Source: Spirochaetota bacterium
GTDB taxonomy: Bacteria; Spirochaetota; Spirochaetia; DSM-27196; SLST01
Assembly: GCA_048624115.1 (NCBI GenBank)
Contig: JBMCTC010000002.1
Location: forward strand, 1-34,201
Direction: 5' to 3'
Length of the DNA stretch: 34,201 nucleotides
Below, piece after piece: positions 16,132 to 29,374 of the stretch. Positions within the stretch are counted from its first letter, which is position 1, and each line of letters opens with the position of its first letter. The notes beneath the pieces were generated by a model. The model had not been told where the DNA came from, searched no databases, and saw only the letters and a program-made list of their open reading frames with translations. The position numbers were made by a program, and so were the translations under genes.

Positions 16132-16755
16132 CTACAAGTCTATGTCTGAGAGGGTGAAGCGCAGCTCAGTTGCCGTCTCCAGGTCCACTCCTTTGCGGAC
16201 ATACCGATCTCCGTCAACGTCCACAAGGACCACGTCTACGATGAGCGACGAGAGTTCGTCGGCAGCAACGCGCAATCGGTAACGTTCGGCGACTCGAAGC
16301 CGTGCATCCTCGAGAAGACTTTCGGCGGCGTCCGTTGAACGACCTCGCGGAACGACGTAAATCTCGGCGATCTCGTAGTTCGTGTCGTTGACGATGTCGA
16401 GCCAGCCAACAGAGGCGAGCGCGGCTGCACCCGTTCCAGCGGAATCTGGGCGCAGCGTCAGTCGTTGGTCTGCAGTCGGCCGCCAGCCCCACACAACAAT
16501 CTCTTGCTCATTCTCATCAATCGCTCGCAGATCATAGGCGGCAGCACCGCGCAGCGTCAGGGTGATGCTTCCGCCCGGCGCGAGCACCGAATCACCGAGC
16601 CGGTCAAGTCCCCAGGACGTCGCATCCTCGGGAGATACGTAGAGAAACACAAGTGTCACGCCGGTCTGATTGACGACCTCGAACGTCACTTGTTGAGCCG
16701 ACAGCGCGACACCGAGCGCCACGAGCACACCGCAAACAGCACAAAGCTTCTTCAT
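16132..16755 (-). CDS. Secreted protein with two tandem copies of an uncharacterised beta-rich domain
   Basis: Internal ATG at 16755 gives MKKLCAVCGVLVALGVALSAQQ, a clear signal peptide. The 149-codon upstream extension in the ORF track overlaps a plausible plus-strand gene and has no protein-like features. The mature part shows two similar halves: VTFEVVNQTGVTLVFLYVSP... and WLDIVNDTNYEIAEIYVVP... Confidence 0.6.
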   Translation of the reverse strand: MKKLCAVCGVLVALGVALSAQQVTFEVVNQTGVTLVFLYVSPEDATSWGLDRLGDSVLAPGGSITLTLRGAAAYDLRAIDENEQEIVVWGWRPTADQRLTLRPDSAGTGAAALASVGWLDIVNDTNYEIAEIYVVPRGRSTDAAESLLEDARLRVAERYRLRVAADELSSLIVDVVLVDVDGDRYVRKGVDLETATELRFTLSDIDL

Positions 16756-16812
16756 AACTGCCCTTGACCCCCGGCTCGAATATACCACCGCGACGGCGGT
16801 TGCTCCACAACC

Positions 16813-17067
16813 GTGAACACGGTAGCATGCAGTGTGGGAAAACGAGACGGAGACGAGATCATTCTCAACAACGAAATAGAAGCAAGGCTGCTCTCCTCTC
16901 TCCTCGAGGAAGAGGAGATACCGCACTTCCTTCGCAGCTATCACGATTCGGCATACGACGGAATCTTTCAGTCCCAACTCGGATGGGGCAGAATAGAGGC
17001 GGATCCGCGCCATCGAGACCGGATTAAGGAGATATTGAACGACCTTCGGGCGGAGCAGAACGGTTGA
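16813..17067 (+). CDS. Small acidic protein, DUF2007-like (putative signal-transducing fold)
   Basis: 77-84 aa, with GTG starts at 16813 or 16834. EIILNNEIEARLLSSLLEEEEIPHFLRSYHDSAYDGIF...GWGRIEADPRHRDRIKEILNDL resembles the small DUF2007 family. It sits 106 nt upstream of cysD on the same strand. Confidence 0.5.
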   Translation: MNTVACSVGKRDGDEIILNNEIEARLLSSLLEEEEIPHFLRSYHDSAYDGIFQSQLGWGRIEADPRHRDRIKEILNDLRAEQNG

Positions 17068-17173
17068 AAAGGGTCGATATCGCCCATTTAGGTGAATTTT
17101 TGATGAAATTCGGTCGGTGACCGACTGAAAACGCTGACGAAACTGTAAAGCTTGTGTATCGTTCCTCATATTC

Positions 17174-18052
17174 ATGGACCACCTAACGCTGCTCGAAAAC
17201 AAGAGCGTCTACGTCCTTCGCGAGGCGTATGCGAATTTTCGTGACCTCGCGATGCTCTGGTCAATCGGCAAGGACTCTACCGTCTTGCTCTGGTTGGCCC
17301 GCAAAGCGTTTTTTGGTCACGTGCCCTTCCCTCTCATTCACATCGACACCGGGTACAAGATCCCGGAAATGATCCGTTACCGCGACCGGCTCACCAGCGA
17401 GTGGGGCTTGACCATGATTGTCGGTCAGGACGAGGATTCGCTTCGAACCAAGCAAACGTATCCGGAGGGCAAGAAGACTCGCCTGGAGTGCTGTAAGGCA
17501 CTGAAGAGTCAGACCCTTGAGCGAACCCTCAACGCGACGGGCCCGAGAAAGATCTTTGACCAAGCCAAGAACGGCTACGTGCCGGAGACCAGCGGACAGG
17601 TGTTTTCCGGAGTTATTGCAGGCGTCCGGGCCGACGAAGAGGGTTCTCGGAGCAAGGAGCGTTACTTCTCGCCTCGGACCGGGACAAACGATTGGGAAAT
17701 CGCCGATCAACCGCCGGAGTTCTGGAACCACTATAAGACGGAGTTCGCCCCCGGCACCCATGTTCGGATTCACCCGCTGCTCGACTGGACCGAGCTCAAC
17801 ATCTGGGAGTACATCAACGCCGAGTCAATACCAACCGTCGACCTCTACTACGACCGGGGCAACGGCACCCGCTATCGATCACTTGGCTGCCAGCCCTGCA
17901 CCTTTCCCATAGAGAGCACGGCGAAGAACCCGGCGGACATTATTGCCGAGCTCAAATCGGGCAATCTCAAGAACATCGCCGAACGCAGCGGCCGCGCCCA
18001 GGACGCGGAAGACGGCGGTCTCGAGACCTTGCGCAAATCAGGATACATGTAA
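17174..18052 (+). CDS. cysD: Sulfate adenylyltransferase subunit 2
   Basis: 292 aa. PP-loop motif [17 protein letters not shown], then [11 protein letters not shown], and the conserved C-terminal LRKSGYM. The stop overlaps the cysN ATG (TAATG). Confidence 0.95.
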
Positions 18053-19935
18053 TGAACCCGAGCACCACGACGAAAGGCGGGAACACATCAGCCTATCCTC
18101 GGTTGGCGGCCGACAGAGAGCCCAGTGGCCCCATGAGCGAAGATCGGCCCACCCTGCAACTTGTCGTTGTTGGTCACGTCGATCACGGAAAAAGTACAAT
18201 TGTTGGGCGTATGCTCCACGATACCGGCTCGCTTCCAGAGGGAAAACTCGATGCGGTGCGCGCGCAGTGCGAGCGAAACTCGAAGCCGTTCGAGTACGCC
18301 TTCCTGATTGACGCCCTCAAGGAGGAGCAGTCGCAAGGCATTACGATAGACTCGGCACGCGTCTTCTTCTCTTCCCACCGCCGCGACTACATTCTCATCG
18401 ATGCGCCGGGCCACGTCGAGTTCCTGAAGAACATGGTCACCGGTGCGAGCCGAGCAGATGCCGGATTCCTCGTAATCGACGCCGCCGAGGGCATTCAGGA
18501 GAACAGCCGTCGACACGGATACCTGTTGGCAATGCTTGGCATCAAGCACTTTTCAGTGATTGTCAACAAGATGGACCTGATTGACTATGACCAGCGGATC
18601 TTCCGGCGCATTGTCAGGCGTTACCGCCGCTTTCTGAGGAGCATCTCGGTCCCAGCGGAGAACACGACCTTTATTCCGGTCAGCGGCATCGCCGGTGACA
18701 ATATCGCCGCCCGTAGCCCGCGGACGCCTTGGTACGAGGGAAAAACCGTGCTCGAGCAGCTCGACAGCTTTCCCGGAACGATCCCGAGCGATCAGCTGCC
18801 GGCCCGAATGCCGGTTCAGGGTGTTTACAAGTTTACCGCCTACGGGGACACGCGACGAATCATTGCAGGAAGCATTGCCGGCGGCACATTCTCGGTCGGC
18901 GAGGAGGTGGTCTTCTACCCCTCGGGTAAGCGCAGCCGCATACGAAGCTTCGAAGCGTTCTCAGCCGTGGCGCCGGAGACGATCACCGCACCACATGCCA
19001 CCGGGTTTTGCCTCGAAGATCAGATCTACGTCACGCGTGGCGAACTTGCAACACGCGGTAGCGACCCGCCGCCGACCGTGAGTAGCCGTCTCAAGGCGAA
19101 CATCTTTTGGCTTGGTCGCGAGGAGATGACCGAGGGCGTCGAGTACACCTTCAAGCTCGGAACGATGGCGCACAGCGTTCGCCTTCACCGTGTGATTCGT
19201 GTCTTGAGCGCCTCAAATCTCAAACCGAGCAAACGCAAACGGAGCGTGGAGCGTCACGACGTCGCGGAGGTGGAGCTTCGATTCGACGGCGATATCGCCT
19301 TTGACGAGGCGAATGTGCTACCGGCAACCGGACGCTTTGTCATTGTCAGCAACTACGACATCTGCGGTGGAGGCATTATCCAGGGGTCGGCAACCGACGA
19401 GGATGAGTGGATTCGCGAGAACGTGCGCCTTCGCAACTTTGCATGGCAGCGCAGTCTCATCCAGCCGCCGGAGCGTGCCGAGCGATACGGCCAGAAGAGT
19501 AGATTGATCGTGCTCCACGGTGACAATCCGGCTGAGACGACCTCGCTTGCCCATCAGCTCGAGCAACGGCTCTTCAACGAGGGCAAGCTCGTCTACTGCC
19601 TTGGCGCAGAGAACGTCGAACACGGCGTAAGTGCGGACCTGCAAGAGGTGCCGATGATACGCGAGGAGCACGTTCGACGCTTAGCCGAGGTCGCGCACCT
19701 CTTTTTGGACGCAGGAATCATGCTCATTGTATCGGGCATCAAGCTCACCGCCGCGGACATCGACGTGCTACGCGTGCCGGTAAACCCGGAGTCTATGCTC
19801 ATTGTCCAAGTCGGAGAACGACAAGCAAAGGGAATCGTGAATCACCTCGTGCTCGAAGGGGATTCCCGTGAATCATCGATCGAGAAGATAAAACGGGCTC
19901 TGAGGAAAACCGGAGCGATCTTCAGCCCGTATTGA
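18052..19935 (+). CDS. cysN: Sulfate adenylyltransferase subunit 1 (GTPase) fused to a degenerate APS-kinase-like C-terminal domain
   Basis: 627 aa. GTPase motifs GHVDHGKST, DAPGH and NKMD are followed by EF-Tu-like beta-barrel domains. Residues ~455-627 align by eye to CysC, but the P-loop GLSGSGKS is replaced by GDNPAETT and LDGDNVRHGL by LGAENVEHGV. Confidence 0.9.
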   Translation: MNPSTTTKGGNTSAYPRLAADREPSGPMSEDRPTLQLVVVGHVDHGKSTIVGRMLHDTGSLPEGKLDAVRAQCERNSKPFEYAFLIDALKEEQSQGITIDSARVFFSSHRRDYILIDAPGHVEFLKNMVTGASRADAGFLVIDAAEGIQENSRRHGYLLAMLGIKHFSVIVNKMDLIDYDQRIFRRIVRRYRRFLRSISVPAENTTFIPVSGIAGDNIAARSPRTPWYEGKTVLEQLDSFPGTIPSDQLPARMPVQGVYKFTAYGDTRRIIAGSIAGGTFSVGEEVVFYPSGKRSRIRSFEAFSAVAPETITAPHATGFCLEDQIYVTRGELATRGSDPPPTVSSRLKANIFWLGREEMTEGVEYTFKLGTMAHSVRLHRVIRVLSASNLKPSKRKRSVERHDVAEVELRFDGDIAFDEANVLPATGRFVIVSNYDICGGGIIQGSATDEDEWIRENVRLRNFAWQRSLIQPPERAERYGQKSRLIVLHGDNPAETTSLAHQLEQRLFNEGKLVYCLGAENVEHGVSADLQEVPMIREEHVRRLAEVAHLFLDAGIMLIVSGIKLTAADIDVLRVPVNPESMLIVQVGERQAKGIVNHLVLEGDSRESSIEKIKRALRKTGAIFSPY

Positions 19936-19962
19936 CTGAAGGGTCCATAGTGAGGGGGTGCC

Positions 19963-21237
19963 ATGCACTACAGTCTGAAGTGTCTGAGCACGGGAGCGGT
20001 GTTGACCGACGAGCTGCTCCCGTTGAGTAATCCTGCGGCGCAGGTTCCCGCGTTTCTGCGGGCAACATACAATAAGAGAGAGTTCAAACCGGGCACTGCC
20101 GACGCCGGCATTTACCGCTTTGCCGATTGGCTCCCGATTCGTCGAACGCTCGAAGGCTCGAGCGCTCCGACAACATACCGGAGCGAGGGGCTCGCCGAGC
20201 GAGTCGGACTCAAGAACCTCTTTATTACGTTTTCCGGCTACTGGCCCGAGCGGAATGCACTGATGCGAACAGGGACGTTCAAGGAGTGCGAGGCGTTTAG
20301 TGTCTGCGGACGAATGCCGGCGAATTACGACAAGACGCTTGTCGTCGCCTCGGCTGGGAACACGGCACGCGCGTTTATCCGGGTGTGCTCGGAGAACAAC
20401 ATACCGCTCCTCGTAGTTGTGCCCGAGCGTAATCTGCCCAACATCTGGAGCGTGGGCCCGGTCGGAGCAAACGTGAGGGTGGTTGCCGCCGGAGGCGATT
20501 CGGACTACTCCGACGCGATTGAGCTCTCGGGCATTTTTGCGTCGCTTCCCGGTTTTGCCGCGGAGGGCGGCGCGAAGAACGTCGCACGTCGGGACGGTAT
20601 GGGCACGACGGTTCTCTCTGCGGTTGAAGAGATCGGCGAGATTCCTCACCACTACTTTCAGGCGGTAGGCAGCGGTACCGGTGCCATTGCTGCATGGGAA
20701 GCCAATCTGAGGCTACTCGAAGCCGGCGACTACGGTGACCGTACGATGAGACTCCACGTGAGCCAAAATCTGCCCTTTACGCCGATTCATCTTGCCTGGA
20801 AGAAGCAATCGCGCGAGATTCCAAGCATGCCCGAGGCAAGCGCCCGTCGATTGATTCGACGCATAAGTGCGAAGGTTTTGGCAAACCGGAACCCGCCGTA
20901 CGCTCTGACCGGTGGGCTCTACGATGCATTGTACGAGACGCATGGTACCACCGCTGCCGTGGGGAACGTTGCAGCCGCCCGCGCCGCGCGAATCTTTCGG
21001 AGACTCGAGGGTGCGGACATCGCACCCGCGGCGGCAGTGGCGGTTGCAGATCTTATGCGTAGGGCCAGAACTGGATTAATAAAGGAAGATGAAATCGTGA
21101 TGCTCAACGTGACCGGCGGCGGCTACAAGGGCATACACAGGAGTGAGGATATTCGCCTCGTCGTTCCGGATGCAGTGGTTCATCGAGAAAACTTCCATCC
21201 GGAGGACGTGGCAAAAATCGCCCGTGAACTCTTTTGA
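19963..21237 (+). CDS. Threonine-synthase-fold PLP enzyme, cysteate synthase-like (candidate O-phosphoserine + sulfite -> L-cysteate)
   Basis: 424 aa. PLP-Lys region MRTGTFKECEAFSV (FKE rather than the FKD of threonine synthases). FSGYWPERNALM lies just upstream, with ASAGNTARAF and a GSGTGAIAAW glycine loop. N-terminus MHYSLKCLSTG..LTD. It is embedded between cysN and an alpha-oxoamine synthase. Confidence 0.65.
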   Translation: MHYSLKCLSTGAVLTDELLPLSNPAAQVPAFLRATYNKREFKPGTADAGIYRFADWLPIRRTLEGSSAPTTYRSEGLAERVGLKNLFITFSGYWPERNALMRTGTFKECEAFSVCGRMPANYDKTLVVASAGNTARAFIRVCSENNIPLLVVVPERNLPNIWSVGPVGANVRVVAAGGDSDYSDAIELSGIFASLPGFAAEGGAKNVARRDGMGTTVLSAVEEIGEIPHHYFQAVGSGTGAIAAWEANLRLLEAGDYGDRTMRLHVSQNLPFTPIHLAWKKQSREIPSMPEASARRLIRRISAKVLANRNPPYALTGGLYDALYETHGTTAAVGNVAAARAARIFRRLEGADIAPAAAVAVADLMRRARTGLIKEDEIVMLNVTGGGYKGIHRSEDIRLVVPDAVVHRENFHPEDVAKIARELF

Positions 21238-21256
21238 TATCAGCAAGGAGCAGTAT

Positions 21257-22549
21257 ATGGATCAGACAGCAGTTGTAACTGAGTCACGCGATCTCTTCGA
21301 GAAGTGCCGCAGCGACGGCGGCTACTTTGGTCTCATGAGAGCCCAAGACGATCACTACTTCACCCGACCGATTCTCCCACCAAAACCGGGCCGTCGAATG
21401 GAGTTCGACGGAATGCAGACGGTAATGTGGAGCGTGAATAACTACCTCGGGCTTGCAGGACACCCCGAGGTGCAGAAATCGGCACTCGAGGCGGTGCAAG
21501 AGTTTGGGGTAAGCTCGCCGATGGGTTCGAGGATGATGACGGGAAACACGCCCTATCACCTCGAGTTCGAAGACGCGCTTGCCTCGTTCACCCAGAAAGA
21601 GGCCGCGTTTCTCTTTAACTACGGCTACCTCGGCGTGTTGGGCACGATCCAGTCTCTCGTGGGGCCGGACGATGTCATCGTGATGGACAAGCTCGCCCAC
21701 GCATGTATCGTGGACGGGGCGTTCCTCTCTCGCGGTCAGCTTCGCGTATTCAAGCACAACAACGCCGATAGCCTCGAAACCGTCCTGAAAGCGGTCAACC
21801 GCAAGCGCAAGGGTGGCGTATTGATCCTTACCGAGGGCGTCTACGGCATGACCGGCGACCTCGCCATCCTCCCCGATGTGGCACGACTGGCACGCCAGTA
21901 CGATGCGCGCGTCTTTGTGGATGACGCGCACGGTTGGGGCGTAATGGGCGAACAGGGCCGCGGTACCGCCGACCACCTCGGAGTCCAGGACGATATCGAC
22001 GTCTACTTTGGCACCTTCGCCAAGTCGTTCGCCTCGATCGGCGGCTTCTCGGCATCGAAGCGAGAGGTAATCGATTGGATCGCCTATAACGCCCGGACAC
22101 AGGTCTTTGCAAAGAGTCTTCCAATGGTGTACGTCCAGAGCTTGCGCACGACGCTCGACCTCGTTCGGAACGCAGACGCCAACCGCGAGAAAATGTGGGC
22201 AAACAGCAACCTGCTCAAGGAGGGGCTTCGAGAGCTCGGCTTCTTTGTCGGTCCGGGCGAATCACCAATCTGTTCGGTCTTTGTGCCCGTCCGCGAAGAG
22301 ACCGTGGAAGCGGTTGGCGTTCGCACCGTCGGCTACCTGCGCAAGAACGGTATCTTCGTGACGGCAATCACCTACCCTGTCATTCCGTTGGGCCTGCTGA
22401 TGTATCGAATGATTCCAACCGCCGACCACGAGCCGGAGGACGTCGCACAGACGATCGAGGTCTTCAGAAAAATGCGAGACGAGGTGAACCTCGACACGTC
22501 GATCACGGGAGAGGACAAGGTCAAAGTCGATAAGGTTTTTGGGGCATAG
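21257..22549 (+). CDS. Alpha-oxoamine synthase family PLP enzyme (candidate cysteate-C-acyltransferase; BioF/SPT-like)
   Basis: 430 aa from the ATG at 21257, which has AAGGAG 8 nt upstream. The ORF-track start at 21143 overlaps the preceding gene. AOS motifs: VNNYLGLAGHPEV, GYLGVLGTIQSLV, DDAHGWG, and the PLP-Lys block GTFAKSFASIGG. Confidence 0.85.
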   Translation: MDQTAVVTESRDLFEKCRSDGGYFGLMRAQDDHYFTRPILPPKPGRRMEFDGMQTVMWSVNNYLGLAGHPEVQKSALEAVQEFGVSSPMGSRMMTGNTPYHLEFEDALASFTQKEAAFLFNYGYLGVLGTIQSLVGPDDVIVMDKLAHACIVDGAFLSRGQLRVFKHNNADSLETVLKAVNRKRKGGVLILTEGVYGMTGDLAILPDVARLARQYDARVFVDDAHGWGVMGEQGRGTADHLGVQDDIDVYFGTFAKSFASIGGFSASKREVIDWIAYNARTQVFAKSLPMVYVQSLRTTLDLVRNADANREKMWANSNLLKEGLRELGFFVGPGESPICSVFVPVREETVEAVGVRTVGYLRKNGIFVTAITYPVIPLGLLMYRMIPTADHEPEDVAQTIEVFRKMRDEVNLDTSITGEDKVKVDKVFGA

Positions 22550-23315
22550 CGTGCAGCGAGAGCCGCGCAAACGAAGCGACCTCGCCCGCCTCGATCAAGC
22601 GAGCGAGGGACTCGATACCGGCGATCTCCTCGCGTTCCTCTGCGATCGAATCGCGCCGGGAACCGTGAAGCTCGCCTCGAGCCTCGGCGCCGAGGATCAG
22701 GTTCTCACCCACATAATTGCGGAGCGAGCCTTGCCGATTACGGTGCTTACCCTCGACACGGGGAGGCTCTTTCCAGAGAGCTACGATCTCATGGCACGAA
22801 CGCGTGCGATGGGTGTTTCATTCGAGGTTGTCTTTCCCGACGGCCCTGCCGTCGAGGAGATGGTGCGCGCGCACGGCGTGAATCTCTTCCGGGACAGCGT
22901 CGAGTTACGCAAGCGTTGCTGTGGTATCCGAAAGGTGGATCCACTCAACAGAGCGCTCGCCGGGTGTAGTGCATGGGTCACCGGAATGAGACGCGAGCAA
23001 GCGGTTACGCGAGGTGAGATTTCGCGACTCGAATGGGATGCCGACCGGGAAATGCTCAAGGTGAATCCGCTCGCCGACTGGTCGGAGGATGAGGTATGGC
23101 AGTACGTGCGGGAGCACGACGTGCCCTATCATCCTCTTCACGACGAGGGATTTCCCTCAATTGGCTGCGCGCCGTGCACCCGAGCAGTCAAGCCGGGCGA
23201 GGATCCGCGTGCGGGTCGTTGGTGGTGGGAATCACCGGAGCACAAGGAGTGCGGTCTCCACGTGCGTGCAGCGACTGCGCAATCGTACGTGAACGTGAAA
23301 CACCTCGACTCGTAG
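22539..23315 (+). CDS. cysH: Assimilatory adenylyl-sulfate (APS) reductase, Fe-S cluster type (CysH family)
   Basis: CysH fold with C-terminal KECGLH. It also has the two Cys pairs typical of APS-specific enzymes (RKRCCGIRKV and SIGCAPCT). The start is TTG 22539 (11-nt overlap) or GTG 22551 (1 nt after the upstream stop). Confidence 0.9.
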   Translation: MGHSVQREPRKRSDLARLDQASEGLDTGDLLAFLCDRIAPGTVKLASSLGAEDQVLTHIIAERALPITVLTLDTGRLFPESYDLMARTRAMGVSFEVVFPDGPAVEEMVRAHGVNLFRDSVELRKRCCGIRKVDPLNRALAGCSAWVTGMRREQAVTRGEISRLEWDADREMLKVNPLADWSEDEVWQYVREHDVPYHPLHDEGFPSIGCAPCTRAVKPGEDPRAGRWWWESPEHKECGLHVRAATAQSYVNVKHLDS

Positions 23316-23326
23316 CAAAGCCGGGG

Positions 23327-23353
23327 GGGCGAGTCCTACCTTCGAACTCGCCC
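23327..23353. terminator. GC-rich hairpin between convergent operons (possible bidirectional terminator)
   Basis: GGGCGAGT (23327-23334) pairs perfectly with ACTCGCCC (23346-23353), with an 11-nt loop. It lies between the cysH stop (23315) and the VOC-gene stop (23336-23338), overlapping the latter. No U-tract on either side. Confidence 0.35.
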
Positions 23354-24391
23354 GAGACCGAGGAGTTTGATCATCCATCGAGGTAACGACTTCTTCGGAT
23401 CACGCTTGGTAAGGTCCAAACTCAGGCCGAGCGACTTCATAAGCGGCACCTTGTGAGTCTCTACGAACTCGATCAGCGTACCGTCGTGGTCCTCTATGTA
23501 GCTAAAGCGACCACCGGCGCTTCCCATGTCAAAGGTGTTTGCGCTATCAACGGTAAAAGCCCGCCCCATCGAGGCGCACGCCGCTGCGAGCGCGTCCATA
23601 CCCTGAACATCAAAACAGAGGTGAATAAAGCCGAGATCGCCCCAATAGCGATCGGCGAAGATCTTCTTGCCCTTCCCGCTGGTGAGTTGCACTAATTCGA
23701 TTGTGCTGGTTCCCATGAGCTCTGCAAAAGGACCTCGGCGTGGCTGCGAATGCGTGAGGAGGACGCGGCGGAACTCCGCTCCCCCCTTTGGCAAGTCGGC
23801 AAAATCGGCGTGCGAGCCGGTCACATCGTAGACCACCGCGTCATACCCGAGAATCTTCTGATAGAGCGGCAACGCGGCGTCGATGTCCGAGCTGCCGATG
23901 ATCGCACCTGCGACGCCTCCCACGGCGGCAGGTTTTCCAAACCAATCGGCGGCTTCCATAATGCAAAAGAGATTACCCTGCGGGTCGAGGGCAAAGATAC
24001 GCTCATCCCCGTCAGGGGCTTCGGTGGGCGGAACGAGAATGGCCGCCCCCGCCTCGGTCAGCTTCGCATGAGCGAGGCGGATATCGCTTGTCTTGAGCAC
24101 GCCGGCAAAGATCCCGGTATCGCCGAGAACCGGTGGCTCTTTCGGGGCCACCGGCGTCCGGCTGGTGAACTGCCAGATCTCAAAGCCCGAGCCTCCGCTC
24201 AAGTTGAGCGCGAGGACAGCGTTCCGTTTATGGACTGCACTGCCGGTGTAGCGTGTCATAAGCGGCGCCTCCGCCTCGTCTTGAAAAACCGGGACGTCGA
24301 GTCCAAATGCGATCCGGTACCACGCCCAAGCCGAAGAGACGTCGCGAACGCCGACGCCGAGCTGCTGAATGCCGCTGATCGTGTAGTCCAT
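23336..24391 (-). CDS. VOC (glyoxalase/bleomycin-resistance/dioxygenase) superfamily protein, multi-domain
   Basis: 351 aa. Repeated beta-alpha-beta-beta-beta VOC-like modules start at ISGIQQLGVGVRDVSSAWAWY, at GAIIGSSDIDAALPLYQKILGY, and at the GFIHLCFDVQGMDAL region. The ATG lies 4 nt after the stop of the upstream DUF1295-like gene. Confidence 0.75.
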   Translation of the reverse strand: MDYTISGIQQLGVGVRDVSSAWAWYRIAFGLDVPVFQDEAEAPLMTRYTGSAVHKRNAVLALNLSGGSGFEIWQFTSRTPVAPKEPPVLGDTGIFAGVLKTSDIRLAHAKLTEAGAAILVPPTEAPDGDERIFALDPQGNLFCIMEAADWFGKPAAVGGVAGAIIGSSDIDAALPLYQKILGYDAVVYDVTGSHADFADLPKGGAEFRRVLLTHSQPRRGPFAELMGTSTIELVQLTSGKGKKIFADRYWGDLGFIHLCFDVQGMDALAAACASMGRAFTVDSANTFDMGSAGGRFSYIEDHDGTLIEFVETHKVPLMKSLGLSLDLTKRDPKKSLPRWMIKLLGLGRVRR

Positions 24392-24395
24392 ACGG

Positions 24396-25295
24396 TTAGT
24401 ATACTGAAGCGTCGCCGTTACGTTCGGCCTCGGCGGCGTCGATTTCTCTACTCGCGAGACGGCGGTTCATCATGGGGATCGAGATACCCAGGAACATCGC
24501 CGTCATCGCCACAGGTCCGACGAGGGTCCAGAGTTCCACGCCGGCCGCGTACGAGAGCGCCCAAACGCCCCACCAAAAGAGCATCTCGCCAATGTAGTTT
24601 GGATGGCGAACAACGCCCCAGATTCCAGTTCGCAAGATCTTGCCCCCGGTTGAGGGGTCACTTCGAAACGCGGCGAGCTGATTGTCGGCCACCCATTCGA
24701 GACCAATCGCAGCTGTGAGCAGCAGCCCGCCTGCGACGAGCGTAAGCATCGAAAACGGGTCGGCCATTGATGCGGTTCTCTGAAGTGCAAAGGCAACCGG
24801 CACGAGCCCAACGAAGACGATAAGCGTCGGGAAAAAGTGAACTCCGATAAAGTCGATCACGATTTCCGCGCGGCCAAACTGCCCTTTGAGCATGCCGTAT
24901 CGCCAATCCTCGTCGCCGAATCCGTGCCAACGCCGTACCCAGTTCGCCGTCAGACGCACGCTCCACACGACGAAGGCGAGAAGCAGCAACGAGAGCCAGA
25001 GCACGGCACCCGTCGAGCTTCCCTCGAACGCCGCGCCGATTCCGCCTCGGTAGGCTGCAATCCAAAAGAGCACGATCACAGGCGGCGCGAGACTCCAGTA
25101 CGGATCGTACATGCTCGAGTTGCCGGACAGCCGACTCGCAACAAATACAAAGAGCGTGGCCGCCGCGTCTGCCCAGAGCGCGCGCTCGACGGGTGAGCGG
25201 TCACGCAGCCAGAGAACGACTGCCGCGCCGACAACGAATGCGGCCACGTAGGTAAAGAACACCGCGACGAGCGCTCGCCTCTTCTCACGCACCAT
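24396..25295 (-). CDS. DUF1295 / steroid-5-alpha-reductase-like polytopic membrane protein
   Basis: About 299 aa with 6-8 TM segments. The C-terminal signature [24 protein letters not shown] is shared by DUF1295, ICMT-like and sterol/polyprenol reductase families. ATG at 25295 overlaps the kbl 3' end by 11 nt; the track start at 25313 overlaps by 29 nt. Confidence 0.75.
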
Positions 25296-26475
25296 GGCCG
25301 AGCTCCTTCGCAACCGCAGTAAGCTGTTCGAGCGTATAGTCGAGCTCTTCGCGCGTGTGCGCAGCGCTCACCTGCATTCGTATACGCGCGCTACCCTTCG
25401 GGACCACGGGATACGAGAAGCCGATCACATACACGCCGCGCGCGAGCAGGAGGTCGGCCATCTCGTGGGCCAGCTTTGCCTCACCAAGCATAATCGGCAC
25501 GATCGGATGGGAGCCCCCGGGAATCGACAGGCCGATCTTTGCGACTTCGTTGCGGAAGTAGCGAGTGTTCTCTTCGAGCCGATCGCGAAGCTCGCTGCTT
25601 GATTCGAGAAGGTCGAGCACGGCTATCGACGCGGCCACAATGCTCGGCGCGACGCTGTTGCTAAAAAGGTAGGGGCGCGACCGCTGTCGCAGCAGATCCA
25701 CGACCTCTGCGTTCGCGGCGGTGTAGCCGCCGGTGGCTCCGCCGAGCGCCTTACCAAGGGTCCCGGTAATGATGTCGACGCGGTCGACCACATCGTGATA
25801 CTCGTGGGTCCCCCTACCCTTTGCCCCGAGAAAGCCCACCGCGTGGCAGTCGTCAAACATGACAAGTGCCCCGTGTTTCTCGGCGAGATCACAGATACCG
25901 GGAAGGTTTGCAATGGTTCCGTCCATCGAGAAAACCCCATCCGTCGCGATGAGCTTCACATCGGCTTCGGAAGCCTCTTCGAGCCGCTGCTCCAAATCGG
26001 CCATATCGCAGTTCTTGAAGACGTAGCGCTTGGCCTTGCAGAGGCGCACACCGTCGATGATGCTCGCGTGGTTCAAGCTGTCGCTGATGATCGCGTCTTC
26101 AGGGCCCAACAGCGTCTCAAAGAGACCACCGTTTGCGTCGAAACAGGAGGCATAAAGAATCGCGTCTTCCGTTCCCAAGAACGAGGCGAGACGCCTCTCG
26201 AGCTCCTTATGGATCTCTTGGGTCCCACAGATAAATCGAACGGACGAGAGGCCAAAACCCCATTCGTCGAGGCTCTTGCGCGCCGCCTCGATGACGCTCG
26301 GATGGTTGGAGAGGCCGAGGTAGTTGTTCGCGCAGAAGTTGATGACGTTCTTCCCGTCTGCCACACCGATCGTCGAATCCTGCGGCGTCTCGATGATTCG
26401 CTCGGTCTTATAGAGCCCCGCCTCTCGTATCTCCTGTAAGATAGATGAGAAACGCGCGCGTGCGTGAGTGTCCAT
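25285..26475 (-). CDS. kbl: Glycine C-acetyltransferase (2-amino-3-ketobutyrate CoA ligase)
   Basis: 396 aa, collinear and highly similar by eye to E. coli Kbl along its whole length. Shared blocks: [96 protein letters not shown] and [10 protein letters not shown]. Confidence 0.95.
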
Positions 26476-27689: not shown

Positions 27690-27718
27690 TTGACGCGGGG
27701 AAAGCCTCCTGCTTCAAT
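27690..27718 (+). promoter_or_regulatory. Putative sigma70-type promoter of the PRC-barrel/patatin pair (TTGACG-N17-TTCAAT)
   Basis: TTGACG at 27690-27695, 17-nt spacer, TTCAAT at 27713-27718. AGGAGGA lies at 27724-27730 and the ATG at 27735. The ORF-track TTG start coincides with the -35 hexamer, which argues for the ATG at 27735. Confidence 0.4.
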
Positions 27719-27734
27719 TGATCAGGAGGATCCG

Positions 27735-28502
27735 ATGTTTGTTCACTTGAAGGATCTCGAGGGATTGAGGATTTCGGCCGAAGACGGCGAGATCGGGCAC
27801 GTTGCCGACGTCTATGTGGATGACCATCAGTGGGTCGTCCGCTATCTGGTTGTTGCCACCGGAAGCTGGCTCTTTGGCAAGAAAGTATTGATCTCGCCAA
27901 ATGCGGTTACAAAGCTCGACCGTTCAGGGGGTGCGATTTGCGTCGCACTAAGTAAGGAACAGGTGCGCAATAGCCCCGACATAGACACCGATCGACCGAT
28001 CAGCCGGCAGCAAGAGGCCGAGTATCACCTCTACTACAACTTCCCGCCGTACTGGGGCGGCGTAGCGCTGTGGGGGCGCTACGAGCAGCCGGGGGTCGAG
28101 CCGGATGAGACCGATGAGGAGGCGACTCATCAAGACAAGAAGTACGGAGCGAAGTGGGACAGTCATCTGCGAAGTGCACGTGAGGTGCGTGGATACCGAG
28201 TGACGGCTACCGACGGAGAAGTCGGTCATATCGACAACTTTCTCATGGAGTCCGACACCTGGGCGATTCGTTATCTCGTGATCAACACCGGAGGATGGCT
28301 CAAACGTCACGAAGTGCTCTTTATTCCGAAGCTCATTGACCGGGTGAGCTGGGCAGATGCTCGAGTCACCGTGAACACCTCGAAAGGGCTACTCGAGCGC
28401 GCACCCGAGTATCATGCGGGTCACGAGATTGACCGAACGAGTGAAATGGCGCTGTTTTCGCACTTCACTGCACACCCCTACTGGGAGGAATCGCAACAAT
28501 GA
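27735..28502 (+). CDS. Tandem PRC-barrel domain protein
   Basis: 255 aa from the ATG at 27735. There are two PRC-barrel repeats: LEGLRISAEDGEIGHVADVYVDDHQWVVRYLVVATGSWLFGKKVLISP and VRGYRVTATDGEVGHIDNFLMESDTWAIRYLVINTGGWLKRHEVLFIP. The stop overlaps the patatin ATG (ATGA). Confidence 0.8.
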   Translation: MFVHLKDLEGLRISAEDGEIGHVADVYVDDHQWVVRYLVVATGSWLFGKKVLISPNAVTKLDRSGGAICVALSKEQVRNSPDIDTDRPISRQQEAEYHLYYNFPPYWGGVALWGRYEQPGVEPDETDEEATHQDKKYGAKWDSHLRSAREVRGYRVTATDGEVGHIDNFLMESDTWAIRYLVINTGGWLKRHEVLFIPKLIDRVSWADARVTVNTSKGLLERAPEYHAGHEIDRTSEMALFSHFTAHPYWEESQQ

Positions 28503-29284
28503 GCCAGAGACGAGCCGGCTTTGGCCTCGCCCTCGGAGGTGGCGCCGCCCGGGGCGTTGCCCACATCGGCGTACTGCGAGTACTCGAAGAGGAGGGGCTC
28601 GAACCGGATTTCATCTGTGGAACCAGTGCCGGCAGCATCGTGGGAGCCCTCTACGCCGGAGGCTACCGCTGGGAGACAATAGCGGAGGTAGTCCGTAGCA
28701 CCGACTGGCGCGATATCGTTCAGCCGGTTTTTCCCAAGATGGGCCTGGTCAAGGCCGAGAAGCTTCAGCAACGCCTGAACGAGCTGCTCGACAGCCTGAC
28801 CTTCGAAGAGCTCGACGTGCCGTTCTGTGCCGTAGCCGTGGATATCATGACCGGGAAAAAGGTTCAGTTGCGAACCGGACCCGTTGCGCCGGCCGTGCGC
28901 GCGAGCTGTAGCGTGCCCGGCATTTTCGAACCGATGATCGACGGAGATCGGGTCTTGGTCGATGGCGGAATTCTCGAAGAGGTGCCCATTTACACCTGTC
29001 AGGATATGGGGGCAAAGATTGTCCTCGCGGTAGACCTGAACTCGGATCTTGCAACACCGCGCTTTCCCGAAAACGTCTTTCACGTGATCCTGGCGTCGTT
29101 TGCCGCGATTTCTCGTAATCGAGAGAAACTTGCCCACTCGCGTCGGAACGTCGTGGTTGCGCTCCCCAAGCTCGCTGAGTTCAGCTTTCACGATCTGAAG
29201 CGGCGCGAAGAGCTCATCGAGGCGGGAGCGGCCGCCGTGCGAGAAGAGTTGCCAAGGCTCAAGAAGCTTCTGCGGATGAGATAG
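28499..29284 (+). CDS. Patatin-like phospholipase (RssA/YlbK-type)
   Basis: 261 aa. Oxyanion loop GGGAARGVAHIGVL, nucleophile elbow GTSAGS (GxSxG), and catalytic Asp in VLVDGGI. Confidence 0.9.
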   Translation: MSQRRAGFGLALGGGAARGVAHIGVLRVLEEEGLEPDFICGTSAGSIVGALYAGGYRWETIAEVVRSTDWRDIVQPVFPKMGLVKAEKLQQRLNELLDSLTFEELDVPFCAVAVDIMTGKKVQLRTGPVAPAVRASCSVPGIFEPMIDGDRVLVDGGILEEVPIYTCQDMGAKIVLAVDLNSDLATPRFPENVFHVILASFAAISRNREKLAHSRRNVVVALPKLAEFSFHDLKRREELIEAGAAAVREELPRLKKLLRMR

Positions 29285-29300
29285 GGTCTAATATCGGTGT

Positions 29301-29374
<74 letters not shown>

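What the first reader, a model, noticed from the sequence alone, without database searches (positions are those of the whole stretch)
17174..23315. Self-contained sulfate -> sulfite -> cysteate -> acyl-cysteate operon: candidate sulfonolipid (capnine-type) pathway in a non-Bacteroidota genome
Seen in sequence: five co-directional genes are packed with a 1-nt overlap, 27-nt and 19-nt gaps, and an overlap or 1-nt gap. They are cysD, cysN with a dead APS-kinase-like domain, a ThrC-fold cysteate-synthase-like enzyme, an alpha-oxoamine synthase (AOS), and an Fe-S-type APS reductase. Nothing else in the window belongs to cysteine, threonine or biotin synthesis: no sulfite reductase, cysK/cysE, thrA/thrB or bioA/bioD/bioB. 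Established knowledge: cysteate synthase uses O-phosphoserine plus sulfite. In Bacteroidota, CapA (cysteate synthase), CapB/SulA (an AOS condensing cysteate with acyl-CoA/ACP to 3-dehydrocapnine) and CapC (a reductase) make capnine-type sulfonolipids. Inference: the operon makes sulfite as an end product, not as an intermediate toward sulfide. It then channels that sulfite into cysteate and an acylated sulfonate. I am not aware that this wiring, with the sulfite-supply genes embedded around the two committed enzymes, has been described, particularly in a spirochaete-like genome. The third-step ketoreductase (CapC-like SDR) is not visible in the window.
Basis: partly seen in the sequence, partly recalled or inferred. 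Interest (0 to 1): 0.85.

Follow-up and report, generated by a model that had tools for sequence, protein, structure and literature searches.

The report
Sulfonolipid-precursor operon in a spirochaete
A spirochaete genome carries a tight five-gene operon that most likely turns sulfate into sulfite, then cysteate, then the keto precursor of capnine-type sulfonolipids, a lipid class known almost only from Bacteroidota, and related gene clusters occur in many Spirochaetota and some Clostridia.

Summary
Five co-directional, tightly packed genes encode CysD, CysN with a dead APS-kinase-like tail, a cysteate synthase, an alpha-oxoamine synthase (AOS) and an Fe-S APS reductase. The cysteate synthase scores 458 bits on TIGR03844 (cutoff 325). 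Its best solved relative is a cysteate synthase (439 bits), against 42 bits for threonine synthase. The AOS matches the two solved cysteate acyltransferases best (363 and 359 bits; 257 for the best serine palmitoyltransferase). It keeps the SulA-specific Lys281 equivalent. A canonical Kbl lies 3 kb away.

The cysteate synthase–AOS pair is adjacent in 20 of 21 Spirochaetota loci and 4 of 4 Bacillota loci, but in 0 of 20 Bacteroidota loci. The sulfite-supply genes are accessory. cysDN is present in 11 of 26 Spirochaetota loci. The Bacillota loci carry a non-homologous AprAB-type APS reductase instead. The missing ketoreductase is absent from the window but sits in the cluster in relatives. One relative also has a PlsC-type acyltransferase.

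It accompanies the pair in several phyla and often pairs with an SDR. Its role is unknown.

Verdict: a new variant of a known pathway. All evidence is computational.

The parts
17174..18052 (+). cysD, sulfate adenylyltransferase small subunit
   Evidence: NF003587, 330 bits (cutoff 195); PF01507. Overlaps cysN by 1 nt.
18052..19935 (+). cysN, GTPase subunit of ATP sulfurylase, fused to a degenerate APS-kinase-like domain (about residues 460-590)
   Evidence: TIGR02034 308.8 bits (cutoff 336) and NF004035 422 bits (cutoff 715), both below cutoff. G1 motif GHVDHGKST intact. Kinase P-loop replaced by LHGDNPAETTS. The P-loop is degenerate in all 13 clustered sequences.
19963..21237 (+). Cysteate synthase of the archaeal/Alistipes-Odoribacter type (O-phosphoserine + sulfite -> L-cysteate)
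   Evidence: TIGR03844, 457.6 bits (cutoff 324.9). Best solved structure is 9k3c 'Cysteate synthase' at 439 bits; threonine synthases score 42 bits or less. 50-55% identity to homologs in MAGs labelled Odoribacter.
21257..22549 (+). Cysteate acyltransferase of the SulA/CapB/CFAT type (L-cysteate + acyl-ACP/CoA -> 3-ketocapnine + CO2)
   Evidence: Best solved structures are 28eh 'Cysteate-C-fatty acyltransferase' (362.5 bits) and 7u7h SulA (358.9 bits); SPT scores 256.6 and Kbl about 204. Identity: 44% to SulA, 35% to SmSPT, 31% to the window Kbl. N61, H148, K256 (PLP lysine), K286 (SulA Lys281 equivalent) and R384 are conserved. In the NJ tree it is sister to SulA/CFAT.
22551..23315 (+). cysH, thioredoxin-dependent Fe-S APS reductase (APS -> sulfite); an alternative start is TTG 22539
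   Evidence: TIGR02055, 254 bits (cutoff 235); NF002537, 275 bits. CC...CxxC and ECGLH motifs are present.
23336..24391 (-). Two-domain VOC (glyoxalase/dioxygenase-fold) metalloprotein. Candidate accessory component; role unknown.
   Evidence: PF00903 and PF13669. AF2 model pLDDT 93.8. Foldseek returns only generic two-domain VOC proteins at TM 0.5-0.6. Lies within 5 kb of CS in 16/26 Spirochaetota and 3/4 Bacillota loci. Co-directional VOC-CS-AOS-SDR-AprAB in Bacillota. Next to K281-type FAAL-ACP-AOS fusions in L062 and L066. Paired with an SDR in many metagenome loci.

Best explanation
The window carries a biosynthetic operon for the sulfonated long-chain-base precursor of capnine-type sulfonolipids, with its own sulfite supply.

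Proposed steps:
1. CysD and CysN activate sulfate to APS. The APS-kinase-like tail of CysN is inactive, so APS is not converted to PAPS by this protein.
2. The Fe-S APS reductase CysH reduces APS to sulfite.
3. The cysteate synthase replaces the phosphate of O-phospho-L-serine with sulfite to give L-cysteate.
4. The SulA/CapB-type alpha-oxoamine synthase condenses cysteate with a fatty acyl thioester, with loss of CO2, to give 3-ketocapnine.
5. Reduction to capnine and N-acylation would be done by enzymes encoded elsewhere in this genome. Related genomes place an SDR, and in one case a PlsC-type acyltransferase, inside the cluster.

What is shown and what is inferred: gene identities, diagnostic residues and synteny are shown. 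Substrates, the direction of flux, acyl chain length and the final lipid are inferred.

The conserved core across Spirochaetota and Bacillota is cysteate synthase plus AOS, usually with the VOC protein. The sulfite-supply genes are an add-on that different lineages solved differently: CysDN/CysH in some Spirochaetota, AprAB-type in Bacillota.
For: - Cysteate synthase: TIGR03844 equivalog, 458 bits against a cutoff of 325. The best solved relative is a cysteate synthase at 439 bits; threonine synthase scores 42.
- AOS: top solved relatives are CFAT 28eh (363 bits) and SulA 7u7h (359 bits), about 100 bits above any SPT.
- Residues: the SulA-specific Lys281 is essential in SulA and is Ala in Spt (PMC9304779). 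It is Lys286 here. It is Lys in every clustered ortholog aligned, including the Rhodothermaceae (L062) fusion AOS domain. In one search the same column is Asn in the Kbl paralogs. N61, H148, K256 and R384 are also conserved.
- Paralog: a bona fide Kbl lies 3 kb away, so the operon AOS is not the housekeeping Kbl.
- Sulfite supply: CysH has the APS-reductase HMM score and Fe-S motifs; the CysN kinase P-loop is dead.
- Synteny: CS-AOS is adjacent in 20/21 Spirochaetota and 4/4 Bacillota loci.
- Independent support: Bacillota loci read VOC-CS-AOS-SDR-AprA-AprB-like, with AprA at NF005331 888 bits (cutoff 557).
- Downstream steps in relatives: an SDR adjoins the pair in 7 Spirochaetota and 4 Bacillota loci. 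L047 reads SDR-CysDN-CS-AOS-PlsC acyltransferase-VOC. L110 from an independent scan reads SDR-CysD-CysN-CS-AOS, convergent with VOC.
- No sulfite reductase in the window or in the flanks examined.
Against: - There is no biochemical or lipidomic evidence. Every locus is from a MAG or metagenome contig; no cultured carrier was identified.
- No ketoreductase or N-acyltransferase is in the 34-kb window, so completion to capnine or a sulfonolipid in this organism is unverified.
- The rest of the genome could not be searched. A sulfite reductase elsewhere would let CysDN/CysH serve general sulfur assimilation as well.
- cysDN and cysH are absent from most related CS-AOS loci, so the sulfite-supply wiring is not intrinsic to the system.
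- Acyl chain length and donor (ACP or CoA) cannot be read from the sequence.
- CysN scores below its NCBIfam cutoffs.
Confidence: 0.75

Rival explanations
1. This is an ordinary assimilatory sulfate-reduction operon (cysDN-cysH) for cysteine synthesis. The cysteate synthase and AOS genes merely lie inside it. Sulfite goes mainly to a sulfite reductase encoded elsewhere, and cysteate/AOS chemistry is a side branch or unrelated.
For: CysD, CysN and CysH are standard assimilatory enzymes. The genome outside the window is unseen. Most relatives run CS-AOS without clustered cysDN/cysH, which shows that sulfite can come from elsewhere.
Against: The two committed genes sit between cysN and cysH with gaps of 27, 19 and about 1 nt, which implies co-transcription. 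No sulfite reductase or cysK/E was found in the window or in the flanks examined. Bacillota link the same CS-AOS pair to a non-homologous AprAB-type APS reductase. L110 and L127 also join CysDN to a K281-type AOS, next to a clear CS in L110 and a weak (28% identity) CS-like hit in L127. Repeated independent linkage is hard to explain by chance.
Confidence: 0.12
2. The pair makes cysteate and a short- or medium-chain alpha-amino-ketone sulfonate, which would be a soluble metabolite or signal (analogous to CqsA/CAI-1 or Kbl-derived pyrazines) rather than a membrane sulfonolipid.
For: No ketoreductase or N-acyltransferase is in the window. Some relatives have TetR regulators and MFS or MATE efflux genes nearby. 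Bacillota carriers are monoderm, whereas sulfonolipids are described as outer-membrane lipids (PMC9304779). Chain length cannot be read from sequence.
Against: The AOS is closest to enzymes that use C15-C17 acyl-ACP (PMC9304779). Relatives cluster it with an SDR and a PlsC-family acyltransferase. K281-type AOS domains in L062 and L066 are fused to a long-chain fatty acyl-AMP ligase and a carrier domain.
Confidence: 0.1
3. The AOS is a BioF, Kbl or serine palmitoyltransferase, and the ThrC-fold protein is a threonine synthase. The cluster would then be a mixed amino-acid/cofactor locus.
For: NCBIfam lists bioF, Kbl and SPT models with E-values of 1e-86 to 1e-92 for the AOS.
Against: All those scores are far below the curated cutoffs (309 vs 426, 297 vs 460, 298 vs 640). 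Solved-structure ranking and the NJ tree place the AOS with SulA/CFAT. The residue at the Lys281 position is Lys, whereas it is Ala in SmSPT and Asn in the Kbl paralogs. A true Kbl is present separately. Threonine synthase models score 69 bits or less, against 458 for cysteate synthase.
Confidence: 0.02

Closest known systems
Bacteroidota sulfonolipid pathway as in Alistipes/Odoribacter (archaeal-type cysteate synthase; SulA/CFAT; 3-ketocapnine reductase KCR/CapC; unidentified N-acyltransferase)
   Same: Same two committed enzymes. The cysteate synthase is 50-55% identical to homologs in MAGs labelled Odoribacter. The AOS is 44% identical to SulA, with all five active-site residues conserved, including the diagnostic Lys. 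Relatives add an SDR.
   Different: The phylum is Spirochaetota, and Bacillota in relatives. The genes are operonic, whereas 0 of 20 Bacteroidota cysteate-synthase loci have an adjacent AOS. Sulfate activation and reduction genes are embedded in the operon. A VOC-fold protein is a frequent neighbour. No ketoreductase is in this window.
Capnocytophaga CapA-CapB-CapC capnine pathway
   Same: Same reaction logic: phosphoserine + sulfite -> cysteate -> 3-ketocapnine -> capnine (PMC10191378). CapB is the same enzyme class as the window AOS.
   Different: According to PMC10191378, CapA is only distantly related to the archaeal-type cysteate synthase. The window enzyme is the archaeal/TIGR03844 type. 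No CapA, CapB or CapC sequence was compared directly here.
Methanogen coenzyme M route via cysteate synthase (TIGR03844; Graham et al. 2009, cited in PMC4045070)
   Same: Same cysteate synthase family; the equivalog HMM is passed.
   Different: No sulfopyruvate decarboxylase (ComDE) or other CoM genes are nearby. Here cysteate is handed to an AOS rather than being transaminated. The host is a bacterium.
Assimilatory APS-reductase pathway (CysDN plus Fe-S CysH, as recalled for Pseudomonas, Mycobacterium and Bacillus; from my own knowledge)
   Same: Same enzymes and motifs, with an APS-specific CysH.
   Different: No sulfite reductase or cysteine synthase is in the neighbourhood. The two cys blocks flank the cysteate-consuming genes, so sulfite appears to be the delivered product.
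Bacterial serine palmitoyltransferase / sphingolipid pathway
   Same: Same AOS fold and mechanism, followed by a ketoreductase and N-acylation.
   Different: The amino-acid substrate determinant differs (Lys286 here, Ala in SmSPT). Solved-structure scores are about 100 bits lower for SPT.

Membership tests
Cysteate synthase (TIGR03844 equivalog) | Whole-protein score above the curated equivalog cutoff and well above threonine synthase models | tested here: met
   457.6 bits against a cutoff of 324.9. The best threonine synthase model scores 68.8 bits.
Cysteate synthase (TIGR03844 equivalog) | Closest experimentally solved protein is a cysteate synthase | tested here: met
   9k3c 'Cysteate synthase' scores 438.8 bits over residues 3-419. 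Threonine synthases score 41.7 bits or less.
Cysteate synthase (TIGR03844 equivalog) | Catalyses O-phosphoserine + sulfite -> L-cysteate | not testable with these tools
   Needs an enzyme assay.
Cysteate acyltransferase (SulA / CapB / CFAT) | Lys at the SulA Lys281 position (Ala in Spt; K281A is inactive, PMC9304779) | tested here: met
   Window K286 in FAKSLPM aligns with SulA YAKSLPM and CFAT FAKSLPM. SmSPT has FSASMTP and the Kbl paralogs have FSNSVAP.
Cysteate acyltransferase (SulA / CapB / CFAT) | AOS catalytic set: PLP lysine plus the Asn53, His140 and Arg376 equivalents | tested here: met
   K256, N61, H148 and R384 are conserved.
Cysteate acyltransferase (SulA / CapB / CFAT) | Groups with characterised members rather than with SPT, Kbl or BioF | tested here: met
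   Solved-structure scores: 363 and 359 bits (CFAT, SulA), 257 (SPT), 204 (Kbl), 179 (BioF). The NJ tree places it sister to SulA + CFAT. The tree is a simple NJ tree with few references.
Cysteate acyltransferase (SulA / CapB / CFAT) | Uses cysteate and long-chain acyl-ACP to form 3-ketocapnine | not testable with these tools
   Needs an enzyme assay.
Complete capnine / sulfonolipid pathway | 3-ketocapnine reductase (SDR) present | tested here: not met
   No homolog of the cluster SDRs is in the 34-kb window (tblastn, best E about 0.03). An SDR is present in the clusters of 7 Spirochaetota and 4 Bacillota relatives. The rest of this genome could not be searched.
Complete capnine / sulfonolipid pathway | N-acyltransferase converting capnine to a sulfonolipid | tested here: inconclusive
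   None is recognisable in the window. A PF01553 acyltransferase follows the AOS only in L047. I did not find this enzyme identified for Bacteroidota in the papers I read.
Complete capnine / sulfonolipid pathway | Sulfonolipid detectable in cells | not testable with these tools
   Needs lipidomics. No cultured carrier was identified.
Thioredoxin-dependent Fe-S APS reductase (CysH, TIGR02055) | HMM above cutoff; Cys-Cys...CxxC cluster ligands; C-terminal ECGLH catalytic Cys | tested here: met
   254.2 bits against a cutoff of 235.3. RKRCCG, GCAPCT and KECGLH are present.
Sulfate adenylyltransferase CysDN | CysD and CysN models above cutoff; GTPase motifs intact | tested here: inconclusive
   CysD passes (330 vs 195). 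CysN is below its cutoffs (308.8 vs 336.1; 422 vs 715), but the G1 motif is intact and it overlaps cysD.
Bifunctional CysNC (active APS kinase) | Walker A GxxGxGK[ST] in the kinase domain | tested here: not met
   The sequence is LHGDNPAETTS. Only the N-terminal 88 of 152 profile positions match.
Glyoxalase I / extradiol dioxygenase / HPPD (for the VOC protein) | Specific similarity to a characterised VOC subfamily | tested here: not met
   No NCBIfam or solved-structure sequence hit of note. Foldseek gives only generic two-domain VOC folds at TM 0.5-0.6 and 13-16% identity.

The most novel reading that the evidence does not exclude
Capnine-type sulfonolipid long-chain bases are made outside Bacteroidota, in a broad set of Spirochaetota and some Clostridia, from a portable gene cassette. 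The two-domain VOC metalloprotein would be a previously unrecognised component of this cassette. It is found beside the cysteate-type AOS in Spirochaetota, Bacillota, a Rhodothermaceae genome and a Bacteroidota MAG, and it is frequently paired with a PRK06181-family SDR. It would act on the alpha-amino-beta-keto sulfonate intermediate or its reduced product. One possibility is metal-assisted enolisation or epimerisation, or protection of the unstable amino-ketone, working with the ketoreductase. The invariant residues (Gln10, Glu71, His257, Glu311, and four invariant Arg) are only my reading of alignment A1 and the predicted strands as a possible glyoxalase-I-like metal site with a cationic pocket. 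No coordinates were inspected.
Probability: 0.3. Interest if true: 0.75.

Novelty: new variant of a known kind. Interest (0 to 1): 0.62.

Why it matters
The papers I read describe sulfonolipids as a hallmark of Bacteroidota. They tie these lipids to gliding motility, choanoflagellate multicellularity and host inflammation (PMC9304779, PMC11211663, PMC11525784).

A conserved, operonic cysteate synthase–cysteate acyltransferase pair in Spirochaetota and Clostridia would widen the taxonomic source of these lipids in sediments, soda lakes and digesters.

It would also show that cells can dedicate sulfate activation and reduction to a lipid head group rather than to cysteine.

Because the genes are clustered here, unlike in Bacteroidota, the cluster offers candidates for pathway components that I did not find identified in the papers read. 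These are a PlsC-type N-acyltransferase, an SDR family and a VOC metalloprotein.

The operon is compact enough (about 6 kb, or 7.2 kb with the VOC gene) for direct heterologous expression.

Tried and rejected
- Riboswitch or leader upstream of cysD: Rfam at gathering threshold on the whole window found only a tRNA. An E-value-mode scan of 16650-17250 found nothing.
- Promoter and terminator scans gave nothing above background that defines the transcription unit.
- VOC function by sequence: NCBIfam and solved-structure searches gave nothing useful.
- VOC function by structure: Foldseek on a high-confidence model gave only generic VOC folds.
- The idea that the VOC family is obligately linked to an AOS was tested with a VOC-centred metagenome scan and rejected. 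Only 6 of 80 loci have an AOS within 8 kb. The scan instead revealed an SDR-VOC pair.
- A cultured or named complete genome carrying the cluster: the two long contigs checked are metagenomic.
- SDR identity: NCBIfam and solved structures give only generic SDR names. KdsR scores 120-142 bits against a cutoff of 400.
- Literature searches for sulfonolipids in Spirochaetota, for a glyoxalase/VOC link, or for sulfate-activation genes clustered with sulfonolipid genes found nothing relevant.
- DUF1295 (24396-25313) as the missing ketoreductase: rejected as unsupported. A homolog lies near the cluster in only 2 related loci (L005, L039). From my own knowledge, its family reduces C=C bonds, not ketones.

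Full report
**Observation**

The five + strand ORFs are real and lie at the stated coordinates. The junctions are as described:
- cysD and cysN overlap by 1 nt (TAATG).
- The cysN–cysteate synthase gap is 27 nt.
- The cysteate synthase–AOS gap is 19 nt and contains an AAGGAG ribosome-binding site.
- cysH starts either at TTG 22539 (overlap) or at GTG 22551 (1-nt gap). The second start corresponds to the gene call on the identical contig of GCA_964448555.1.

Profile searches give these identities:

| Gene | Best model | Score | Cutoff |
|---|---|---|---|
| CysD | NF003587 | 330 | 195 |
| Cysteate synthase | TIGR03844 | 457.6 | 324.9 |
| CysH | TIGR02055 | 254 | 235 |
| CysN | TIGR02034 | 308.8 | 336 (below) |
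| AOS | bioF / Kbl / SPT | 309 / 297 / 298 | 426 / 460 / 640 (all below) |

CysN has an intact GTPase G1 motif. Its C-terminal APS-kinase-like domain has LHGDNPAETTS in place of the Walker A loop. That loop is degenerate in all 13 clustered sequences. CysH carries the Fe-S ligands (CC…CxxC) and the ECGLH catalytic motif.

Nothing else in the window belongs to sulfur, threonine or biotin biosynthesis.

**What the two central enzymes are**

The ThrC-fold protein matches a solved 'Cysteate synthase' (9k3c) at 439 bits. No threonine synthase scores above 42 bits.

The AOS matches 'Cysteate-C-fatty acyltransferase' (28eh) at 362.5 bits and Alistipes finegoldii SulA (7u7h) at 358.9 bits. The best serine palmitoyltransferase scores 256.6 bits, Kbl about 204 and BioF about 179.

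Radka et al. (PMC9304779) showed that the only active-site difference between SulA and Spt is Lys281, which is Ala in Spt, and that K281A is inactive. In the HMMER alignment this position is Lys in the window protein: FAKSLPM, against SulA YAKSLPM and SmSPT FSASMTP. The PLP lysine and the Asn53, His140 and Arg376 equivalents are also conserved, as K256, N61, H148 and R384.

A bona fide Kbl (TIGR01822, 651 bits, cutoff 493) lies at 25285-26475 on the other strand. It has Asn at the diagnostic position. The operon AOS is therefore a distinct paralog, 31% identical to that Kbl and 44% identical to SulA.

**Where else the cluster occurs**

The window is identical to a contig of MAG GCA_964448555.1. 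The closest AOS and cysteate synthase homologs come from Spirochaetota MAGs.

A scan of species-representative genomes with the cysteate synthase returned 57 loci. I mapped the window proteins onto them:

| Feature | Spirochaetota | Bacillota | Bacteroidota |
|---|---|---|---|
| AOS directly after cysteate synthase (loci with ≥1.5 kb downstream) | 20/21 | 4/4 | 0/20 |
| VOC within 5 kb | 16/26 | 3/4 | 0/25 |
| cysDN | 11/26 | 0/4 | 0/25 |
| cysH | 4/26 (also the window itself and the copies of its contig, L001-L004) | 0/4 | 0/25 |
| AprA | 0/26 | 4/4 | 0/25 |
| SDR | 7/26 | 4/4 | 1/25 |

The Bacteroidota set includes MAGs labelled Odoribacter (a genus that produces sulfonolipids, PMC9304779) at 50-55% identity.

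In an NJ tree, all these AOS orthologs form one clade that is sister to SulA + CFAT and separate from SPT and Kbl. All carry the diagnostic Lys.

**The sulfite-supply layer**

cysDN and cysH are accessory rather than constant (table above). The four Bacillota loci (Ruminiclostridium, Thermoclostridium and relatives) instead read VOC–CS–AOS–SDR–AprA–AprB-like. The AprA call is firm (NF005331, 888 bits, cutoff 557). So a non-homologous APS reductase has been attached to the same pair in a second phylum.

An independent VOC-centred metagenome scan turned up two more linked arrangements:
- L110: SDR–CysD–CysN–CS–AOS.
- L127: CysN–CysD–(a weak, 28%-identity CS-like hit)–AOS(K281).

No sulfite reductase was seen in any flank I annotated. 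The linkage is an optional add-on rather than a fixed part of the system.

**The missing steps**

No SDR of the cluster type is in the window. In relatives an SDR sits directly after the AOS (L015, L017, L021, L048, L051) or beside the cysteate synthase or cysDN genes (L035, L039, L047). These SDRs fall into two subfamilies, PRK06179-like and PRK06181-like. Neither can be named more precisely; solved structures give only generic SDRs.

L047 is the fullest cluster: SDR–CysDN–CS–AOS–PF01553 acyltransferase–VOC. The acyltransferase is a candidate for the N-acylation step.

The gene at 23336-24391 (-) encodes a 351-aa two-domain VOC-fold protein. Evidence that it belongs with the pair:
- It lies within 5 kb of the cysteate synthase in 16/26 Spirochaetota loci.
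- It is co-directional and tightly spaced upstream of the cysteate synthase in Bacillota; in L021 the aligned regions are only about 14 nt apart.
- In Rhodothermaceae bacterium RA it follows a 1126-aa FAAL–ACP–AOS fusion and a fatty-acid hydroxylase. In a Bacteroidota MAG it sits between a similar fusion and an SDR. The AOS domain of the Rhodothermaceae (L062) fusion is of the K281 type; the L066 fusion was not checked for this residue.

Evidence limiting that view:
- The AF2 model is confident (pLDDT 93.8), but Foldseek returns only generic two-domain VOC proteins: monomeric glyoxalase I, GLOD4, PcpA and uncharacterised proteins, at TM 0.5-0.6 and 13-16% identity.
- In a VOC-centred sample of 80 metagenome loci, only 6 have an AOS within 8 kb. 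The family is therefore not obligately AOS-linked.

That sample did show something else. In 21 loci an SDR hit lies within 300 nt of the VOC gene. In 18 of those it is a co-directional ortholog of the L066 SDR at 39-52% identity.

I regard the VOC protein as a candidate accessory enzyme of long-chain-base metabolism with an unknown reaction. The glyoxalase-I-like ligand set (Gln10, Glu71, His257, Glu311) and the four invariant arginines are only my reading of the alignment and the predicted strands.

**Comparison with what is known**

The chemistry is the known sulfonolipid route: phosphoserine + sulfite → cysteate → 3-ketocapnine → capnine → N-acyl capnine (PMC10191378, PMC11211663).

The window's cysteate synthase is the archaeal/TIGR03844 type used by Alistipes and Odoribacter. 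PMC10191378 describes Capnocytophaga CapA as only distantly related to that type.

Loose homology surveys have listed candidate genes in 13-21 phyla (PMC11211663, PMC11525784). They used E-value thresholds of 1e-20 and 1e-5. These are very permissive for such large enzyme families, and I judge (without testing it) that they do not separate these enzymes from ThrC, Kbl and BioF relatives.

I found no paper in the searchable library that reports sulfonolipid genes or lipids in Spirochaetota, a clustered sulfate-activation module, or a VOC partner.

**Verdict**

This is a new variant of a known pathway:
- The committed enzymes are the known ones.
- The phyla are new.
- The pathway is operonic rather than dispersed.
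- Sulfite supply is optional and embedded.
- There is a conserved accessory protein of unknown role.

Everything here is inferred from sequence. No cultured carrier was found, and the rest of the genome could not be examined.

Noticed in passing
window 25285-26475 (-): A bona fide glycine C-acetyltransferase (Kbl; TIGR01822, 651 bits, cutoff 493), a second AOS paralog 3 kb from the operon. No threonine dehydrogenase was seen beside it. It is syntenic in several Spirochaetota relatives (L005, L009, L010, L023, L026).
   Followed up: partly
window 24396-25313 (-): A DUF1295 / steroid-5-alpha-reductase-like membrane protein lies between the VOC gene and kbl and overlaps kbl by 29 nt. A homolog sits in the same position in L005 and about 5 kb from the cluster in L039. 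A possible lipid reductase, but there is no evidence that it belongs to the pathway.
   Followed up: partly
window 16132-17202 (-) and 16813-17067 (+): Upstream of cysD there is a hypothetical protein with no family match (called as 207 aa on the identical GCA_964448555.1 contig) and an 84-aa + strand ORF. In nine related Spirochaetota loci the position divergent from the cysteate synthase is taken by a TetR-family regulator instead.
   Followed up: partly
L015 13457-15515; also L014, L017, L021: Bacillota clusters end with an AprA-type adenylyl-sulfate reductase alpha subunit (NF005331, 888 bits) and a 103-aa two-[4Fe-4S] ferredoxin resembling AprB. A dissimilatory-type enzyme appears to have been recruited to a biosynthetic cluster.
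   Followed up: partly
L047 12796-14076 (+): A 426-aa PF01553 (PlsC/LPLAT) acyltransferase lies directly after the AOS. It is a candidate capnine N-acyltransferase. It has no NCBIfam match.
   Followed up: partly
L062 3692-7072 and L066 4429-7956: Fusion proteins of about 1130-1175 aa combine a fatty acyl-AMP ligase, a carrier domain and an AOS. In the Rhodothermaceae genome (L062) the AOS domain carries the SulA-type Lys. The fusions lie next to the VOC gene, and to a fatty-acid hydroxylase (L062) or an SDR (L066).
   Followed up: partly
L067 9383-12724 (-): A 1113-aa fusion combines 2-oxoacid dehydrogenase E1 (E1_dh, transketolase domains), a lipoyl domain and KAS III. It lies between the VOC gene and a CS-AOS-PAPS_reduct block. 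It may supply branched-chain primers.
   Followed up: no
L080-L149 (VOC-centred metagenome loci): A conserved SDR->VOC gene pair. In 18 loci a PRK06181-family SDR (39-52% identical to the L066 SDR) lies co-directionally within about 220 nt upstream of the VOC gene, mostly with no AOS nearby.
   Followed up: partly
L011 289-2203: The one Spirochaetota locus with enough downstream sequence where the cysteate synthase is not followed by an AOS. It is preceded by a divergent CysH-like gene (33% identity).
   Followed up: no
L127 4168-5025 (-): A ThrC-fold gene only 28% identical to the window cysteate synthase lies between CysDN-like genes (31-34% identity) and a K281-type AOS. It may be a second, different type of cysteate synthase.
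   Followed up: no
window 27690-29374: A PRC-barrel protein (27690-28502), a patatin-like phospholipase (28499-29284; RssA-like, 144 bits, below cutoff) and a tRNA (29301-29374, -). The rpsB-tsf-frr-uppS block follows. The region between rny and rpsB is a conserved chromosomal slot in this spirochaete family (L005, L068, L069).
   Followed up: no
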